Part shown: positions 3,388-18,559 of the stretch, in pieces | Layout: every line of letters starts with the position of its first letter | Position numbering within the stretch: the stretch's first letter is position 1 | Source of the DNA: a virus | Lineage: Duplodnaviria; Heunggongvirae; Uroviricota; Caudoviricetes | Length of the DNA stretch: 40,445 bases | Direction: 5' to 3' (one strand) | Virus record (IMG/VR): IMGVR_UViG_2541047760_000006 | Made by a program: the position numbers and the translations under genes | Notes under the pieces: generated by a model | Seen by the model: only the letters and a program-made list of their open reading frames with translations | Told to the model about the DNA's origin: nothing | The model's database searches: none

Positions 3388-3530
3388 ATATCACCTTAAA
3401 TAGTGGATTGCGGTAGTAAAGATTGTGCCTGTCTTTTAACCACATCAGGCTCGGTGGTTCTCGTGTACCCCTACAACGAGAAATCGGATAAACTCTATTC
3501 ACCCCTACAGAGAGCAAAAGAGAAACGCCG

Positions 3531-5590: not shown

Positions 5591-6144
5591 ATTCCAAACC
5601 CCATTTGCCCCGACTCATCTTCAAGCGGTAAAGGTATTCTCCCAGAGTAAGTTATGTTCAGATGTTTACAGAAGTAATTCCAATACCCTACCAGGTCATC
5701 TGGGTTTATGTCATCTTCGATTGGAAACGCTATTCTATCACTATAGTATCCAGCTTCTTCATAGTATACATGGTAGTGAGCACCGTAAATGATATCTTGG
5801 TACTTCGGATGATCGACCTTGTAACTATTCGTGTGTTTGTCAAAGTGATAGGTATCTACCGCGAAAACCCTCTTGTTATGATAGAAAGCAATAATATTTA
5901 TTTTAGGGTAAGAAATCGGGTCATCAGGTTCTGAATCCTGATCTGGTTTCCATTTCAGTTCAAACTTTAGCCCTTGTATAGGTATACAATCCTCATCCAA
6001 GGGGATGATATGGGCTTGTAGCCACATATCAGAGCGACTTGGTTTCTGTTTCCATTTAACGCCAGAAAAGTTAACTATTTTTTTACAATAAAGTACTTTA
6101 TCAACTTCTACTTGGCTTGGCTGATAATCATCTATTTTTGCCAA
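5587..6144 (-). CDS. hypothetical protein, first gene of the rex-slot cassette
   Basis: 185-aa ORF, MAKIDDYQPSQVEVDKVLYCKKIVNFSGVKWKQKPS..., His/Tyr-rich segment AHYHVYYEEAGYY. The track start at 6144 is a TTG codon; the true start is uncertain. Begins 40 nt downstream of the cI stop, same strand. AT-rich relative to neighbours. Confidence 0.75.
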   Translation of the reverse strand: MAKIDDYQPSQVEVDKVLYCKKIVNFSGVKWKQKPSRSDMWLQAHIIPLDEDCIPIQGLKFELKWKPDQDSEPDDPISYPKINIIAFYHNKRVFAVDTYHFDKHTNSYKVDHPKYQDIIYGAHYHVYYEEAGYYSDRIAFPIEDDINPDDLVGYWNYFCKHLNITYSGRIPLPLEDESGQMGFGI

Positions 6145-13832: not shown

Positions 13833-14915
13833 TTAGAACTGATAAACCAGACCTACAGCGACGATGTCGTCGGTATCAATACCAGCTGTTTTGGTAAACT
13901 TACTATCGTCAATTAAGTTGATTTTGTAATCAACAAAAGTGGACATGTTTTTATTAAAGTAGTAAGTAGCACCGACATCGACATACTTGACTAAGTCTCG
14001 GTCACCATGAACACCAAGGTCTTTACCTTTTGACTGAAGGTAAGCAACAGATGGACGCAGACCGAAGTCAAACTGATATTGTGCTACTGCTTCAAAGTTT
14101 TGTGCTTTGTTTGCAATATGGTTATTACCAAAAACGGTCATATTCTGAGTTTCAGAATATGTGGTAGCCAGATAGATATTGTTCGCATCATATTTCAGGC
14201 CTGCAGCCCATACTTCCGCATTTTTGCCGGAGGCATTGAATTTGCTCTTACCATAGGCGACCTGACCGTCAGTGCGATCTGATTTAGCATAGGTTGCACC
14301 CACGCCGAATCCTTCATACTCATAAGTAGTGGAGAAACCGAAACCATCACCATTGGCTTCAGTTACGTCAGTGCGGTCATTTTTACCCTGATACTGAGCA
14401 GCAAAGTTCAGGCCATCGACCAGACCAAAGAAGTCGTTGTTACGATAAGTTGCAACACCAGTAGTGCGACCAGTCATGAACACATCTGTTTGGGTCCAGG
14501 TATCACCACCGAATTCTGGCAGAACGTCAGTCCACGCACCGATGTCGTATGCTACACCGTAGTTACGGCCGTAATCGATTGAGCCGTAATCACCAAATTT
14601 CAGGCCTGCAAATGCAAGACGGGTTTTGTCTTTGGAAGAACCTTGAGATTCAGCACGGTTGCCTTTGAATTCATATTCCCACTGACCGAAACCAGTCAGT
14701 TGATCGTTGATTTGGGTTTCACCTTTGAAGCCAAGACGGGCATAAGTAGTATCACCATCATCTGCATCATTAGAGGAGAAGTAGTGCTTGGCATTAACTT
14801 TCCCGTATAGATCCAGCTTGTTACTGTCTTTATTATAAATTTCAGCTGCCTGAGCAGACATCGCCATCAGTACTGATGCAGCTACAGCAGAAATTGCCAC
14901 TGTTAATTTTTTCAT
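13833..14915 (-). CDS. nmpC: OmpC/OmpF-family general porin (NmpC / Lc-like, phage-borne)
   Basis: Signal peptide [23 protein letters not shown] then [17 protein letters not shown]... and C-terminal ...VAVGLVYQF, classic enterobacterial porin features. Start taken at the internal ATG 14913-14915. AT-rich upstream region 14916-15300. Confidence 0.95.
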
Positions 14916-15341
14916 TGTACGCCCTTTTTTTGAACTTTTATTAAAAAATGATGTCACTGCGCGATAAATATTCATCTAATCAATGTGATTATTTCAAGAT
15001 GTAAGTTTTAGTTTCTCATTTAATTTGTGAAGTAGATCTCTATTTTTATCTGAACCTTTTCTATCTAATCCTATTCATGGCTCTTGTCTGAACAAAAATA
15101 AATCTATTAGCTAATTTATATTAATGGCACTTATTTATAAGTGCTCTATAATTCTTTAGCTTAATTTAAACAAACTAAAAATAACATCGGAAATTATTAA
15201 CTGGTTATTTGTTGAAGTTTTCTTATGCATTTGTGGTGGTGTTTTGAACACTCGGTGGCATTCTCACAAATATCATTTAGTAGTTTACGTACGTAAAAAA
15301 TTGGTTATGCTGTTAAGAGTGGTTACTTCGTCACACAGCTT

Positions 15342-15503: not shown

Positions 15504-15719
15504 ATGAAATCCATGGATAAGTTAACAACGGGTGTCGCCTATGGTACCTCAGCAGGTAGTGCCGGGTACTGGTTTTTACAGTTGCTCGATAAAGTCACGC
15601 CCTCACAGTGGGCGGCAATAGGTGTGCTGGGTAGCCTGGTATTTGGCCTGCTGACGTACCTGACAAACCTTTATTTCAAGATTAAAGAAGATAAGCGCAA
15701 GGCTGCGAGAGGTGAATAA
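15504..15719 (+). CDS. essD: class II holin (phage 21 S / EssD-like pinholin)
   Basis: 71-aa product [71 protein letters not shown], two TM segments; RBS gaggtgggg. Confidence 0.93.
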
Positions 15720-16216
15720 TGCCTCCATCATTACGAAAAGCCGTTGCTGCTGCTATTGGTGGCGGAGCAATTGCTATAGCATCAGTGTTAATCACTGGCC
15801 CAAGTGGTAACGATGGTCTGGAAGGTGTCAGCTACATACCATACAAAGATATTGTTGGTGTATGGACTGTATGTCACGGGCATACAGGAAAAGACATCAT
15901 GCTCGGTAAAACGTATACCAAAGCAGAATGCAAAGCCCTCCTGAATAAAGACCTTGCCACGGTCGCCAGACAAATTAACCCGTACATCAAAGTCGATATA
16001 CCGGAAACAATGCGCGGCGCTCTTTACTCATTCGTTTACAACGTGGGTGCTGGCAATTTCAGAACATCGACGCTTCTTCGCAAAATAAACCAGGGCGATA
16101 TCAAAGGCGCATGTGATCAGCTACGTCGCTGGACATATGCTGGCGGTAAGCAATGGAAAGGTCTCATGACTCGTCGTGAGATTGAGCGTGAAATCTGTTT
16201 GTGGGGTCAGCAATGA
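15719..16216 (+). CDS. rrrD: SAR endolysin (GH24 lysozyme with N-terminal signal-anchor-release segment)
   Basis: ATG overlaps the holin stop (TAATG). N-terminal hydrophobic Gly/Ala-rich segment [18 protein letters not shown] followed by a T4-lysozyme-like domain; resembles phage 21 R / RrrD. Confidence 0.93.
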
Positions 16217-16674
16217 ACAGAGTAACCGCGATTATCTCCGCTCTGGTTATCTGCATCATCGTCTGCCTGTCATGGGCTGTTAATCATTACCGTGATAACG
16301 CCATTACCTACAAAGCCCAGCGCGACAAAAATGCCAGAGAACTGACGCTGGCGAACGCGGCAATTACTGACATACAGATGCGTCAGCGTGATGTTGCTGC
16401 GCTCGATGCAAAATACACGAAGGAGTTAGCTGATGCGAAAGCTGAAAATGATGCTCTGCGTGATGATGTTGCCGCTGGTCGTCGTCGGTTGCACATCAAA
16501 GCAGTCTGTCAGTCAGTGCGTGAAGCCACCACCGCCTCCGGCGTGGATAATGCAGCCTCCCCCCGACTGGCAGACACCGCTGAACGGGATTATTTCACCC
16601 TCAGAGAGAGGCTGATCACTATGCAAAAACAACTGGAAGGAACCCAGAAGTATATTAATGAGCAGTGCAGATAG
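16213..16674 (+). CDS. rz: Rz i-spanin
   Basis: Start at internal ATG 16213 ([17 protein letters not shown]...), N-terminal TM then coiled-coil; contains the embedded Rz1 frame. Confidence 0.9.
16433..16615 (+). CDS. rz1: Rz1 o-spanin lipoprotein (embedded in the +1 frame of Rz)
   Basis: [23 protein letters not shown]... lipobox LVVVGC and proline-rich mature part [15 protein letters not shown]; wholly inside Rz in another frame. Confidence 0.88.
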
Positions 16675-16705: not shown

Positions 16706-16999
16706 TTATTGTGAGCAATACACACGCGCTTCCAGCGGAGTATAAATGCCTAAAGTAATAAAACCGAGCAATCCATTTACGAATGTTTGCTGGGTTTCTG
16801 TTTTAACAACATTTTCTGCACCACCACAAATTTTTGCTGCATCGACAGTTTTCTTCTGCCCAATTCCCGAAACGAAGAAATGATGGGTGATGGTTTCCTT
16901 TGGTGTTACTGCTGTAGGTTTGTTTCCAACAGTAAACGTCTGTTGAGCACATCCTGTAATAAGCATTGCCAGAGCGGCAGAAAACAACATTTTTTTCAT
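16706..16999 (-). CDS. bor: Bor outer-membrane lipoprotein (serum-resistance lysogenic conversion factor)
   Basis: Start at internal ATG 16997-16999: MKKMLFSAALAMLITGCAQQTFTV...GIYTPLEARVYCSQ, near-identical to lambda Bor; lipobox LITGC. Confidence 0.95.
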   Translation of the reverse strand: MKKMLFSAALAMLITGCAQQTFTVGNKPTAVTPKETITHHFFVSGIGQKKTVDAAKICGGAENVVKTETQQTFVNGLLGFITLGIYTPLEARVYCSQ

Positions 17000-17479
17000 C
17001 TTATTATCCTGCATTGTTAAAAACGGCAGAATCCTATGTGACAACAATTAAACGATAGTTAAATGGATTGATGAAAATTAAAACTACACAGGTGGGCTCA
17101 GACTATTGGAGGAAGTTGGGGACACTCAGAATCCTGTGGAATGAAATAAACCGGTCTATCCGTCCATTACCCTTTTAGCTGCGCTGTATCGTCGCCGTAT
17201 TCCCGCATTAACCATGACCGTAGCCCGACGGGGAATTCCTTCTGCGTGAGTGTGCGGGAATAATTAAAAACGATGCACACCGGGTTTTTACCGCGTTAAT
17301 GATTCGCGGGTTTATCCCGGTGCGATGGTGGAAGAAACAGGAAGCTGTATTACAGAAAGTGCTACTACTGTATCCCGATGCGATGTATGTAATGTGAGTC
17401 AGATAATGGCACAGGATGTGGTGATGTGGCAGTCTGGAACACAGGATATATTGTCAGAATAAGACCCGTAGGAATAAAA

Positions 17480-17806
17480 ATGAAAAGACGCCTTTTACTA
17501 CTTTTTCTGTTATCTGTCCTGGCAGTGGGATGCTCGCAGCAAAAAGCTGATGAGCCCCGGCAATTAGTGACGGTGTATCCACGATATCCGGAATATGCTG
17601 CAGCAAATTATATCAAGGGGCTGGTTGAGGTTAAGTTCGATATTGGTGCTGATGGGACTGTGACACGGATCGTTTTTCTCCGCTCAGAGCCTCATAATTT
17701 GTTTCGTGATGAAGTGGTGAAGGCCATGGCGAAATGGCGATTTGAAAAGAATCGCCCCTGTCAGGGAGTGAAGAGACAATTTATCTTTACGCCGTCACGT
17801 CCTTGA
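17480..17806 (+). CDS. small lipoprotein with TonB C-terminal-like domain
   Basis: Internal ATG at 17480; signal/lipobox MKRRLLLLFLLSVLAVGC; mature part YPRYPEYAAANYIKGLVEVKFDIGADGTVTRIVFLRSEPHNLFRDEVVKAMAKWRFE aligns with the TonB C-terminal domain pattern (YP..A....I.G.V.V.F.I..DG.V.......S.P...F...V..A...WRF). Confidence 0.75.
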   Translation: MKRRLLLLFLLSVLAVGCSQQKADEPRQLVTVYPRYPEYAAANYIKGLVEVKFDIGADGTVTRIVFLRSEPHNLFRDEVVKAMAKWRFEKNRPCQGVKRQFIFTPSRP

Positions 17807-17928
17807 TGCTTCCAGGTAGAGAGGGGCTGGAAGCAGGAGAAAAATGAAAGAGCCAGCGGTTATATTTTTGTCATGGCTGACGAGGAATGATGGAAGAAGG
17901 CGTTGTATGCCACACAACGCCTCACTGT

Positions 17929-18108
17929 TCATTTCTTCTTTTTCTCTGGTGGAACCCGATGAATAAGAGTTGCACTGGTTTCCGATGAGATGGCGATATA
18001 CTCGGGCAAAGTATGCTGGCAGTTTTCCAACTGGTCAAAAATACCTGCTCTCGTCTGTTGCAATGCCTGCAGCATGCGGCGGCAATGCGCCTTGCTTTTA
18101 CTAACCAT
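17929..18108 (-). CDS. small hypothetical protein (frame may extend 5' to 18282)
   Basis: Track ORF 17929..18282 (117 aa) overlaps the next gene by 113 nt; the internal start at 18108 (MVSKSKAHCRRMLQALQQTRAGIFDQLENCQHTLPEY..., preceded by gaggaaggaaag) avoids the overlap. Stop is firm, start uncertain. Confidence 0.3.
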   Translation of the reverse strand: MVSKSKAHCRRMLQALQQTRAGIFDQLENCQHTLPEYIAISSETSATLIHRVPPEKKKK

Positions 18109-18169
18109 CTTTCCTTCCTCTATCAGTCGCTGCGTGAACTCATCATGGAATACCAGGTAAATGCGGATG

Positions 18170-18421
18170 TTATCGGTTTTGGCTACGCAGCATAGTACAA
18201 AACGGACAGGTGCATCCCGGGACGGGGGAGGCGTCACATGTCCCTGTGATGGTTGTTCCGGGTAATGTACTGTGTGGGGCATAAAAATGTCCGATAATTT
18301 TACTTTCTACCGCAGTTAGTTGATTCGTTGGTCCTGGTAGCACATTGGGCGAGGATTTAAATGCCAGGCAACTGAAGGATGATGTTGCAAGGGAGATAGC
18401 GAGAATATTTCTGATTTTCAT
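18170..18421 (-). CDS. small secreted Cys-rich protein (signal peptide)
   Basis: Internal ATG at 18419-18421: MKIRNILAISLATSSFSCLA (signal peptide) then FKSSPNVLPGPTNQ...GTCDASPVPGCTCPFCTMLRSQNR with five Cys in the mature part; gagg about 10 nt upstream. Confidence 0.5.
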   Translation of the reverse strand: MKIRNILAISLATSSFSCLAFKSSPNVLPGPTNQLTAVESKIIGHFYAPHSTLPGTTITGTCDASPVPGCTCPFCTMLRSQNR

Positions 18422-18559
18422 TTGATGATGCCTCTGTGTGAAATGACGGTAAACGACGCACTTGTGCCGGCACATAATAGCAAGCACCATAATAGATCAG
18501 ATTCGATTCTTGCTGTAAGTGATAATTATTCTCGTTTTCGGGTCCTTTCCGTCGATCCA

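What the first reader, a model, noticed from the sequence alone, without database searches (positions are those of the whole stretch)
17480..17806. Prophage lipoprotein carrying a TonB C-terminal-like domain: candidate decoy that blocks TonB-dependent uptake
A 108-aa protein with signal peptide and lipobox (LAVGC) whose mature part matches the conserved TonB C-terminal pattern (YP...A...I.G.V.VKFDI..DG.V..I.FL.S.P...F..EV..AM..WRFE). A TonB-domain lipoprotein in the periplasm could bind the TonB boxes of outer-membrane transporters and block phages or colicins that need TonB energy, in the way Cor or Llp exclusion lipoproteins block FhuA. It sits in the accessory region between the lysis genes and cos.
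Basis: inference. Interest (0 to 1): 0.7.

Follow-up and report, generated by a model that had tools for sequence, protein, structure and literature searches.

The report
Prophage lipoprotein copying TonB's C-terminal domain
A very common E. coli prophage gene encodes a small, probably outer-membrane-anchored copy of the part of the host TonB protein that grips nutrient transporters; it lacks the parts that deliver energy, so it may interfere with TonB-dependent import, but nobody has tested what it does.

Summary
Window 17480-17806 (+) encodes a 108-aa protein with a lipoprotein signal peptide (lipobox Cys18) and a complete TonB C-terminal domain. Pfam TonB_C scores 49.2 bits against a cutoff of 24.6. 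The AlphaFold2 model (pLDDT 86) superposes on E. coli TonB taken from its BtuB and FhuA complexes at 0.9-1.1 Å.

The gene is identical to phage 21's 'TonB C-terminal domain protein', so the domain is already annotated. It occurs in 1617 of 5426 complete E. coli genomes, always between the lysis cassette and the terminase. dN/dS is about 0.12.

New findings:
- It belongs to a clade of small secreted or lipoprotein TonB_C proteins, sister to enterobacterial TonB domains.
- Chromosomal members in Klebsiella, Raoultella and Serratia carry near-perfect Fur operators, which the phage copies have lost.
- The clade keeps the TonB-box-binding strand (Phe230 equivalent), ends before TonB residues 236-239 of the 235-239 occluding strand, and has Tyr in place of TonB's Arg166.

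The decoy idea is plausible, because overexpressed periplasmic TonB domain inhibits transport, but it is untested. The phage's own receptor is LamB, so this would not be self-exclusion. Fur control in the host relatives argues against a pure inhibitor. No functional study was found.

The parts
17470..17473 (+). Ribosome-binding site AGGA, 6 nt before the ATG
   Evidence: Read directly from the sequence. Phage 21 annotation places an RBS at the same spot.
17480..17530 (+). Lipoprotein signal peptide, residues 1-17 (MKRRLLLLFLLSVLAVG): basic n-region followed by a hydrophobic core
   Evidence: Conserved in variants at 67-100% identity and in more distant family members.
17531..17533 (+). Lipobox cysteine Cys18 (A-V-G-C), followed by Ser at +2 (no Asp), which predicts Lol sorting to the outer membrane
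   Evidence: Cys18 is invariant in alignments A2 and A3. The +2 residue is S, A or T in close variants. Sorting is inferred from the established +2 rule.
17534..17578 (+). Tether, residues 19-33 (SQQKADEPRQLVTVY). Its second half aligns to TonB 153-160. Tyr33 occupies the position of TonB Gln160.
   Evidence: pLDDT is low (55-79) for residues 1-30.
17579..17791 (+). TonB C-terminal domain core, residues 34-104, equivalent to TonB 161-231. It has the YP motif (Y36-P37), the aromatic residues F53, F75, W86, F88 and F103, and the last strand 94-103 that corresponds to the TonB-box-binding strand.
   Evidence: Pfam and TIGRFAM hits, PDB alignment, AlphaFold2 model and Foldseek, per-position table.
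17792..17806 (+). Short C-terminal tail (PSRP) and stop codon. The protein ends at the equivalent of TonB residue 235, so it has no residues equivalent to TonB 236-239 (most of the 235-239 strand).
   Evidence: PMC6118199 reports that TonB 235-239 can form an extra strand that occludes the TonB-box site.
17177..17345 (.). Conserved lambdoid backbone block upstream, with nested inverted repeats. It travels with the gene in the Stx-phage variant but also occurs in hundreds of phages that lack the gene. It probably holds the divergent bor promoter or leader and acts as a recombination boundary.
17342..18513 (.). Variable accessory cassette, defined relative to phage 434. It contains the TonB_C gene and about 700 bp downstream with no confidently assigned gene.
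   Evidence: The blastn match to the phage 434 right end is interrupted between 17341 and 18514. The downstream ORFs have no Pfam or PADLOC hits.

Best explanation
The gene encodes an outer-membrane-anchored TonB C-terminal domain that is not coupled to any energy source.

Proposed sequence of events:
1. The signal peptide is cleaved and Cys18 is lipidated (inferred).
2. The 10.6-kDa domain hangs from the inner leaflet of the outer membrane on a tether of about 15 residues (inferred).
3. The domain has the fold and the exposed edge strand that TonB uses to pair with the TonB-box strand of TonB-dependent transporters and of group-B colicins (shown by homology and model).
4. It has no transmembrane anchor, no proline-rich spacer and no ExbB/ExbD coupling, so it can bind but cannot pull (shown by sequence).
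5. The likeliest consequence is competition with TonB at TonB boxes. That would damp or block TonB-dependent import, making the cell less sensitive to TonB-dependent phages, colicins and microcins at some cost in iron and B12 uptake (inferred).

Because the carrier phage uses LamB, any protection would be against other agents, not against itself. With no visible promoter of its own, the gene is probably transcribed mainly with the late operon from pR' (inferred).

It descends from a host family of small TonB_C lipoproteins that is Fur-regulated in Klebsiella, Raoultella and Serratia. The phage copies have lost the Fur operator.
For: - Domain identity and completeness.
- Confident model superposing at 0.9-1.1 Å on TonB as bound to FhuA and BtuB.
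- Conserved core and TonB-box strand. P161, Y163, P164, G174, F180, D181, G186, P198, F202, W213, R214, Y/F215, P220 and F230 equivalents are retained in 20 of 20 or nearly all family members. F230 contacts the conserved Val of the TonB box, and strand 226-231 pairs with it (PMC6118199).
- The protein stops before TonB residues 236-239 of the 235-239 strand that can occlude that site.
- Lipobox conserved down to 35% identity.
- Not a decaying fragment: dN/dS about 0.12 overall and about 0.10 in the domain; present over at least 80% of its length in 1612 of 5426 complete E. coli genomes; 218 viral contigs.
- Fixed position between the lysis cassette and the terminase in three different phage backbones.
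- Precedents: overexpressed periplasmic TonB domain inhibits TBDT iron import (Howard 2001, cited in PMC9841981); the phage lipoprotein Llp jams FhuA from the periplasm (PMC9586334).
- Tyr replaces Arg166, the residue proposed to disrupt the plug. This fits a binder that does not open the transporter.
Against: - There are no experimental data and no binding model. A complex prediction could not be run.
- Residues genetically or structurally tied to transporter contact differ from TonB: Gln160 to Tyr, Arg158 to Thr, Arg166 to Tyr. The start of the binding strand is polar or charged (V-K-R-Q) where TonB has I-V-V-N. Affinity for TonB boxes could therefore be reduced or redirected.
- Chromosomal relatives sit behind strong Fur operators. 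Their hosts probably induce the protein under iron starvation, which is odd for a plain inhibitor of iron uptake.
- No promoter was detected upstream of the window gene and no Fur box, so expression in lysogens is unproven. Late expression leaves little time for exclusion to matter.
- The gene is common in extraintestinal pathogenic strains such as UTI89, which depend on TonB-mediated iron uptake.
- There is no hit in PADLOC defence models.
Confidence: 0.4

Rival explanations
1. It is an accessory or modulatory factor of TonB-dependent uptake rather than an inhibitor. As an outer-membrane-tethered TonB_C domain it would help transport under iron limitation. It might hold exposed TonB boxes, organise transporters, or dock periplasmic binding proteins beneath them. 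In that case the prophage copy is a lysogenic-conversion gene that benefits the host in iron-poor niches, alongside the neighbouring Iss/Bor and porin genes.
For: - Chromosomal family members have near-perfect Fur operators 12-80 nt upstream of the start codon. Klebsiella has TGATAATTATTATCA; Serratia matches 17 of 19; the best of 200 shuffles reached 13-15.
- Those members sit in ordinary chromosomal contexts.
- The clade-specific signature (Y166, N170, S196, D203-D204, I207, A211) is shared by chromosomal and phage members, so the molecular activity is probably the same in both.
- The gene sits among envelope-directed accessory genes: a porin at 13833-14975 and Bor/Iss at 16706-17047.
- From my own knowledge, TonB's C-terminal domain has been reported to bind the periplasmic proteins FhuD and BtuF.
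Against: - The phage copies have lost the Fur operator, so they are no longer tied to iron status.
- No mechanism is known by which an unenergised TonB domain would promote transport.
- The only experimental precedent for a free TonB domain is inhibition.
- No transporter or siderophore genes are adjacent in either context.
Confidence: 0.2
2. It traps TonB itself. The lipoprotein would pair with the C-terminal domain of host TonB by strand exchange or through aromatic contacts and hold it at the outer membrane. Titrating the scarce TonB would be more efficient than titrating the abundant transporters.
For: - All the aromatic residues of the TonB domain are conserved: F180, F202, W213, Y215 and F230 correspond to F53, F75, W86, F88 and F103.
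- Dissected TonB C-terminal fragments crystallise as intertwined dimers (PMC6118199; PDB 1ihr and 1u07).
- The clade is the closest relative of enterobacterial TonB domains in the tree.
Against: - There is no direct evidence.
- The physiological relevance of TonB C-terminal dimers is disputed (my own knowledge).
- Many surface positions that are invariant in TonB differ here.
Confidence: 0.1
3. It has an envelope or lysis-related role unrelated to TonB boxes. It could tether the outer membrane to peptidoglycan, or act as an accessory of the lysis cassette as the PHROG label 'Rz-like spanin' suggests, being expressed late with the lysis genes.
For: - It always lies immediately after the lysis genes on the late strand.
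- The full-length match to PHROG 1267 is labelled 'Rz-like spanin'.
- No promoter of its own was detected.
- From my own knowledge, TonB_C-like domains have been linked to peptidoglycan binding.
Against: - A complete Rz/Rz1 spanin pair is already present at 16201-16674 and 16433-16615.
- The protein is a folded TonB_C domain, not a short proline-rich Rz1-type peptide.
- Chromosomal relatives lie far from any lysis genes and are Fur-controlled.
- The PHROG label rests on no evidence that I could find.
Confidence: 0.1
4. It is a functionless remnant: a piece of host tonB picked up by a phage, as older annotations imply ('partial tonB-like membrane protein', 'TonB fragment').
For: Older annotations use those terms. 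Scattered truncated versions exist in databases (P0013, P0017, P0022, P0035).
Against: - dN/dS is about 0.12 with synonymous sites near saturation.
- It has acquired and conserved a lipoprotein signal peptide.
- It is present over at least 80% of its length in 1612 genomes.
- It belongs to a distinct clade with its own conserved signature and chromosomal members in other genera.
Confidence: 0.03

Closest known systems
C-terminal domain of E. coli TonB (residues about 150-239; PDB 1u07, 1xx3, 2gsk, 2grx)
   Same: Same fold (TM 0.90-0.91, rmsd 0.9-1.1 Å) with 38-42% identity. It shares the YP motif, the aromatic core and the last strand with Phe230 that pairs with TonB boxes.
   Different: It is a stand-alone protein with a lipoprotein signal peptide instead of an inner-membrane anchor and proline-rich spacer. 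It has no route to ExbB/ExbD energy. It has Tyr for Arg166 and for Gln160, and it ends at the equivalent of residue 235.
Superinfection-exclusion lipoproteins Llp (T5) and Cor (T1, phi80, N15, HK022)
   Same: All are small phage-encoded lipoproteins that act, or are proposed to act, on TonB-dependent transporters from the periplasmic side (PMC9586334).
   Different: There is no sequence or fold relationship. Llp and Cor block the phage's own receptor FhuA, whereas this phage uses LamB. The proposed target here is the generic TonB box, not one transporter's plug.
Engineered periplasmic TonB C-terminal fragments (Howard, Herrmann, Stratilo and Braun 2001)
   Same: Each is a TonB C-terminal domain placed in the periplasm without its membrane anchor. 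Overexpression inhibits TBDT iron import (as cited in PMC9841981).
   Different: Those are laboratory constructs of TonB itself and are soluble. This is a natural, diverged paralogue that is lipid-anchored. I could not read the original paper.
Specialised TonB paralogues FusB (Pectobacterium) and HasB (Serratia)
   Same: They carry diverged TonB_C domains adapted to particular partners. The FusB domain is among the best structural matches (7zc8, 9hi3).
   Different: They keep the inner-membrane anchor and are energised. The window protein is not.
Chromosomal small TonB_C lipoproteins of Raoultella, Klebsiella, Serratia and Erwinia (annotated only as 'TonB family protein')
   Same: Same architecture and the same clade-specific residue signature, at 37-49% identity.
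   Different: They are chromosomal, not in prophages, and are preceded by Fur operators that the phage copies lack. Their function is also unknown.

Membership tests
TonB_C domain (Pfam PF03544 / TIGR01352) | Profile score above the curated cutoff | tested here: met
   PF03544: 49.2 bits against 24.6. TIGR01352: 47.4 bits against 27.1.
TonB_C domain (Pfam PF03544 / TIGR01352) | [quoted passage not shown] | tested here: met
   The AlphaFold2 model (pLDDT 86.4) matches 1u07, 2gsk, 1xx3 and 2grx at TM 0.86-0.91 and rmsd 0.9-1.5 Å.
TonB_C domain (Pfam PF03544 / TIGR01352) | YP motif and conserved aromatic core (TonB Y163-P164, F180, F202, W213, Y215, F230) | tested here: met
   Y36-P37, F53, F75, W86, F88 and F103.
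TonB energy transducer (NCBIfam PRK10819 equivalogs) | Full-length score above the equivalog cutoff | tested here: not met
   45-69 bits against cutoffs of 265-448, and only the C-terminal part aligns.
TonB energy transducer (NCBIfam PRK10819 equivalogs) | N-terminal inner-membrane anchor that couples to ExbB/ExbD, plus a proline-rich periplasmic spacer | tested here: not met
   The protein has 108 aa. The N-terminus is a lipoprotein signal peptide and only about 15 residues precede the domain.
TonB energy transducer (NCBIfam PRK10819 equivalogs) | Conserved Arg166 in helix 1 | tested here: not met
   Arg in 9 of 9 enterobacterial TonB domains. Tyr39 here, and Tyr in 15 of 20 members of the small-protein clade.
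Bacterial lipoprotein (signal peptidase II substrate) | Basic n-region, hydrophobic core and a lipobox ending in Cys within the first 15-35 residues | tested here: met
   MKRR-LLLLFLLSVL-AVG-C18. The Cys is invariant in alignments A2 and A3. Relatives have LMGC, LLGC, LSAC or LAAC. Position -3 is Ala here, which is less canonical than Leu.
Bacterial lipoprotein (signal peptidase II substrate) | Lipid modification and outer-membrane localisation | not testable with these tools
   Outer-membrane sorting is inferred from Ser at +2 (no Asp). It needs globomycin or palmitate labelling and membrane fractionation.
Cor / Llp superinfection-exclusion lipoproteins | Sequence or fold homology to Cor or Llp | tested here: not met
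   There are no Pfam or PHROG hits to those families, and the fold is a TonB C-terminal domain.
Cor / Llp superinfection-exclusion lipoproteins | Encoded by a phage whose own receptor is the transporter being blocked | tested here: not met
   J's C-terminal 250 aa are 100% identical to phage 21 J. Phage 21's native receptor is LamB (bioRxiv 10.1101/2024.04.15.589635).
Cor / Llp superinfection-exclusion lipoproteins | Expression abolishes receptor function or phage adsorption | not testable with these tools
   This requires plating and uptake assays.
Rz1-type o-spanin (the label of PHROG 1267) | Short proline-rich outer-membrane lipoprotein encoded within or next to its i-spanin partner | tested here: not met
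   A separate Rz/Rz1 pair lies at 16201-16674 and 16433-16615. This protein is a folded domain of about 90 residues, 800 bp away and beyond bor.
Known anti-phage defence systems (PADLOC-DB 2.0) | Match to any defence-protein model | tested here: not met
   0 families at E up to 0.1.

The most novel reading that the evidence does not exclude
Small outer-membrane-anchored TonB C-terminal domains would form an unrecognised layer of control over TonB-dependent transport. They would be force-less TonB mimics that occupy TonB boxes of transporters or of incoming colicins and phage proteins right at the outer membrane. Hosts such as Klebsiella, Raoultella and Serratia would deploy them under Fur control when transporters are derepressed. 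Lambdoid prophages captured one, stripped it of Fur control, and spread it to about 30% of E. coli, where it would alter susceptibility to TonB-dependent phages, colicins, microcins and siderophore-antibiotic conjugates.
Probability: 0.3. Interest if true: 0.75.

Novelty: new variant of a known kind. Interest (0 to 1): 0.55.

Why it matters
If the protein competes with TonB, about a third of E. coli strains carry a phage-borne modulator of the main import route for iron, vitamin B12, group-B colicins, several microcins, many phages and siderophore-conjugated antibiotics. Those strains include model uropathogens such as UTI89, where the gene sits next to the serum-survival gene iss. That would affect phage-therapy host range, bacteriocin ecology and 'Trojan horse' antibiotic efficacy. 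It would also be an example of a virus copying the business end of a host motor protein to neutralise it. The Fur-regulated chromosomal relatives point to an unstudied host function in iron physiology. The question can be tested directly with standard plating and uptake assays.

Tried and rejected
- Fur box in the window. There is no match to the 19-mer at up to 3 mismatches anywhere. The best match upstream of the gene is 11 of 19, which is not significant.
- A dedicated regulatory RNA upstream. The block 17177-17345 is more conserved than the CDS and folds well (z -3.0). However, it has no Rfam match and occurs in 432 phage records, most without the gene, including lambda, 434 and HK629, where a minus-strand promoter is annotated in it. 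I concluded it is shared backbone and a recombination boundary, not a gene-specific element.
- A conserved partner gene. The downstream minus-strand ORF is unrelated to the DUF3950/YlcI gene that follows the Stx-phage variant. The upstream 45-aa ORF is not conserved in frame.
- Own promoter. The sigma-70 scan found none on the + strand between bor and the gene, and inspection by eye found only weak candidates.
- First structure model. With a shallow alignment it was poor (pLDDT 63) and was replaced.
- Viral structure library. BFVD gave no match at E up to 0.001.
- Literature. Ten searches found no functional study of this gene. The Howard 2001 paper itself is not held.
- Genome scan. The search for related loci with the widest alignment failed for lack of conserved stretches. 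A narrower alignment worked.
- Complex prediction.
Full report
**1. The observation**

Window 17480-17806 (+) is an intact 108-codon ORF with an AGGA ribosome-binding site 6 nt upstream. The product begins MKRRLLLLFLLSVLAVGC, which is a basic n-region, a hydrophobic core and a lipobox.

The rest of the protein is a TonB C-terminal domain by every test I could run:
- Pfam PF03544 scores 49.2 bits (E 7.3e-13, cutoff 24.6).
- TIGR01352 scores 47.4 bits against a cutoff of 27.1.
- Residues 24-103 align without gaps to E. coli TonB 151-230 in several PDB entries at E about 1e-14.

A first AlphaFold2 model built from a shallow alignment was poor (pLDDT 63). A second, built from a more diverse alignment, is confident (pLDDT 86.4, above 94 over residues 31-100). 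Its best PDB matches are all TonB C-terminal domains. They include TonB as bound to BtuB (2gsk_B: TM 0.91, rmsd 1.1 Å) and to FhuA (2grx_C: TM 0.90, rmsd 0.9 Å).

**2. Where it sits and how common it is**

The window is a lambdoid prophage. The order of features is:
- pinholin, SAR endolysin and Rz/Rz1 at 15504-16674;
- a Bor/Iss lipoprotein on the minus strand at 16706-17047 (Pfam Lambda_Bor);
- the TonB_C gene;
- about 700 bp without a confident gene;
- cos, with the 12-nt cohesive-end sequence at about 18569;
- Nu1 and terminase A.

The gene is 100% identical to CPT_21_73 of phage 21, which is annotated 'TonB C-terminal domain protein'. It is also identical in ev017, Perceval and three ECOR prophages. 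Older records call it 'partial tonB-like membrane protein' or 'TonB fragment'. The domain has therefore already been noticed by annotators. The phage 21 genome paper says nothing about it.

It is present in 1617 of 5426 complete E. coli genomes. Of these, 1202 are at 99% nucleotide identity or more and 392 are a 60-80% variant. They include UTI89 and ATCC 25922, and NCBI names the product 'TonB family protein'. A variant at 72% amino-acid identity occurs in Stx1a phages, JLK-2012 and O157:H7 prophages, and a 41% variant occurs in a Klebsiella phage. In all three phage backbones the gene lies after the lysis cassette, before the terminase and on the late-gene strand. The same holds across 80 viral contigs.

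**3. It is a maintained gene, not debris**

Between the phage 21-type and Stx-type alleles, dN/dS is about 0.12 (dN 0.18, dS about 1.5, so synonymous sites are close to saturation). In the domain alone it is about 0.10. The lipobox cysteine is invariant in family members down to 35% identity, and position +2 is Ser, Ala or Thr in the close variants. [quoted passage not shown] That step is inferred, not shown.

**4. Family relationships**

An exhaustive HMMER search found 2795 TonB_C proteins at E up to 1e-3. Among the best hits is a set of 100-135-residue proteins that align end to end at 35-48% identity. Most of them have a lipobox and some have a plain signal peptide.

In a quick neighbour-joining tree of 148 domains, the phage proteins nest inside this small-protein clade. 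The clade is sister to genuine enterobacterial TonB domains, including E. coli TonB. The tree has no bootstrap support values and should be treated as rough.

Members of the clade in Klebsiella, Raoultella, Serratia and Erwinia lie in ordinary chromosomal neighbourhoods, not in prophages. In Raoultella the neighbours are lacZ, lacI, a 17-kDa-antigen-like lipoprotein and a DUF1440 gene. In Serratia the gene lies between ycgN and dsbB. They too carry only the generic name 'TonB family protein'.

**5. What is kept and what is changed relative to TonB**

A per-position comparison in E. coli TonB numbering used 20 small-clade members and 9 enterobacterial TonB domains.

The structural core is retained: P161, Y163-P164, A167, G174, V176, F180-D181, G186, P198, F202, V206, A209, W213-R214, Y/F215, E216, P220 and F230.

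PMC6118199 summarises the published structures:
- The TonB strand at 226-231 pairs in parallel with the TonB box, and Phe230 packs against the conserved TonB-box valine.
- Residues 235-239 can form an extra strand that occludes this site and must be displaced.
- The conserved Arg166 is proposed to disturb the transporter plug by contacting FhuA Glu56.

The window protein compares as follows:
- It keeps the strand and Phe103 (equivalent to Phe230; Phe in 19 of 20 clade members).
- It ends at the equivalent of residue 235, so residues 236-239 of the occluding strand have no counterpart.
- It has Tyr39 at position 166 (Tyr in 15 of 20, against Arg in 9 of 9 TonBs).

Other positions that are invariant in TonB also differ in a clade-specific way: L170 to N, A196 to S, E203-R204 to D-D, K207 to I/V and R211 to A/S. 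So do Gln160 (Tyr33 here) and Arg158 (Thr31 here). The beginning of the binding strand is more polar (V-K-R-Q against I-V-V-N).

My reading, which is an inference, is that the module for strand augmentation is preserved and permanently open, while surfaces tied to plug disruption and to TonB's own partners have been replaced.

**6. Mechanism**

The protein has no transmembrane anchor and no proline-rich spacer. It therefore has no connection to ExbB/ExbD. It scores only 45-69 bits against TonB equivalog models whose cutoffs are 265-448. Whatever it binds, it cannot transmit force.

Two precedents support it:
[quoted passage not shown] 2001, as cited in PMC9841981). The original paper is not held.
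- Phage T5's lipoprotein Llp binds the periplasmic face of FhuA and jams it. The authors of that study suggest such lipoproteins are common (PMC9586334).

A tether of about 15 residues from the lipid anchor is long enough for the domain to reach a TonB box at the barrel rim. This is an inference from geometry; I had no coordinates to check it.

**7. What speaks against a simple decoy**

First, the phage does not use a TonB-dependent receptor. The last 250 residues of J are identical to those of phage 21, whose native receptor is LamB (bioRxiv 10.1101/2024.04.15.589635). This is not Cor/Llp-style blocking of one's own receptor, and the protein is unrelated to Cor and Llp in sequence and fold.

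Second, no sigma-70 promoter is detectable between bor and the gene. Transcription is therefore probably from the late promoter, which leaves little time for exclusion to matter. Expression in lysogens is unproven.

Third, the chromosomal relatives carry strong Fur operators just upstream of the start codon, which was unexpected:
- Klebsiella sp. R390 has TGATAATTATTATCA, a perfect match to the 7-1-7 consensus TGATAATnATTATCA (16 of 19 to the classical 19-mer).
- Four Raoultella and Klebsiella loci are one mismatch off.
- Serratia grimesii matches 17 of 19.
- The best score among 200 composition-preserving shuffles was 13-15.

Those hosts thus appear to induce the protein when TonB-dependent uptake is most needed. 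That fits a modulator or a protective 'guard' better than a plain inhibitor.

The phage copies have lost the site. The Klebsiella phage has a degenerate version. The Stx-type allele keeps a 13-of-19 palindrome at the same position. The window allele has a 13-nt deletion exactly there, and the window has no Fur box at all.

**8. Rival explanations**

The rivals are:
- a positive or scaffolding role in uptake;
- trapping of TonB itself through domain-domain pairing;
- an envelope or lysis role;
- a dead fragment.

The lysis reading rests mainly on position and on the PHROG 1267 label 'Rz-like spanin'. I regard that label as a misannotation, because a complete Rz/Rz1 pair is present and this protein is a folded TonB_C domain. 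The dead-fragment reading is contradicted by the selection and distribution data. No PADLOC defence model matches, and no BFVD viral structure matches the fold at E up to 0.001.

**9. A lead that turned out to be ordinary**

Homology between the two E. coli alleles starts 300 nt upstream of the ATG. The block 17177-17345 is more than 90% identical while the CDS is about 72% identical. It contains nested inverted repeats and folds unusually well as RNA (-64.8 kcal/mol, z -3.0).

However, it has no Rfam match. Its first half occurs in 432 phage records, including lambda-like phages, 434, ES18 and the Stx phages, most of which lack the TonB_C gene. In HK629 a minus-strand promoter facing bor is annotated inside it. 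It is best seen as shared lambdoid backbone and a recombination boundary.

Relative to phage 434, the variable cassette runs from about 17342 to 18513.

**10. Verdict**

The sequence observation is correct and robust, and the domain assignment is already in public annotation. The functional idea is reasonable, has a laboratory precedent and is consistent with the anatomy. It remains untested, and it needs modification: it is not self-exclusion, expression is probably late, and the ancestry is Fur-regulated.

The new points from this analysis are:
- the lipoprotein nature of the product and its predicted outer-membrane location;
- membership in a distinct clade with chromosomal, Fur-controlled relatives;
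- the specific pattern of retained and replaced TonB residues;
- the high prevalence in E. coli, next to iss/bor.

I rate it a new variant of a known kind (phage lipoproteins aimed at the TonB-dependent import machinery), of moderate to good interest, and directly testable.

Noticed in passing
L007 about 5972-5986; L008-L011 equivalent positions; L014 about 5913-5931 (loci from genome contigs): Chromosomal small TonB_C lipoprotein genes of Klebsiella, Raoultella and Serratia are preceded by near-perfect Fur operators. Klebsiella has TGATAATTATTATCA and Serratia matches 17 of 19. This suggests an unstudied member of the Fur regulon. The phage copies have lost the site.
   Followed up: partly
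window 17177-17345: A block with nested inverted repeats is more conserved than the neighbouring CDS. Its RNA fold has z -3.0 and it has no Rfam match. Its first half is in 432 phage records, including lambda-like phages and 434. It marks the point where related phages diverge (17288), and a minus-strand promoter facing bor is annotated in it in HK629.
   Followed up: partly
L003 about 3464-3480 (also L005): The Stx-phage allele has a perfect 8-1-8 palindrome, AGAATAAG-A-CTTATTCT, just upstream of its ribosome-binding site. It matches the Fur 19-mer at 13 of 19. It may be a degenerate Fur site or an operator for another regulator. The window allele retains only the left half.
   Followed up: no
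window 13833-14975 (-) and 16706-17047 (-): A prophage-encoded OmpC/NmpC-type porin (Pfam Porin_1, E 2e-151) and a Bor/Iss lipoprotein flank the lysis cassette. Together with the TonB_C lipoprotein they make three envelope-directed accessory genes in 4 kb. The arrangement is the same in UTI89.
   Followed up: partly
PHROG 1267: The full-length match (E 5e-43) is to a PHROG labelled 'Rz-like spanin'. The label looks wrong for this family and may be spreading into phage annotations.
   Followed up: partly
window 17807-18513: About 700 bp between the gene and cos has no confident gene. Phage 21 annotation lists two small + strand ORFs. Minus-strand ORFs of 117 and 106 aa have no Pfam or PADLOC hits. 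An 8-bp-stem hairpin at 17808-17834 follows the stop codon but has no T-run.
   Followed up: no
L006 (NZ_SJEX01000172.1, Modestobacter excelsi, 418-bp contig): A 418-bp contig in an actinobacterial assembly is 100% identical at the protein level (residues 1-67) to this E. coli prophage gene. This is almost certainly contamination in that assembly.
   Followed up: no
L101-L103 6730-7294; L002 232-858: A DUF1440 membrane-protein gene lies immediately downstream of the chromosomal TonB_C gene in Raoultella. A DUF1440 gene is also present a few kb away in the Klebsiella phage that carries a TonB_C homolog. This may be a trace of co-capture from the host chromosome.
   Followed up: no
P0036, P0043, P0096 and others: Many of the better hits are long proteins with 3-6 tandem TonB_C domains (for example 513 aa with 5 matched stretches, and 1308 aa with 5). 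This architecture was not examined.
   Followed up: no
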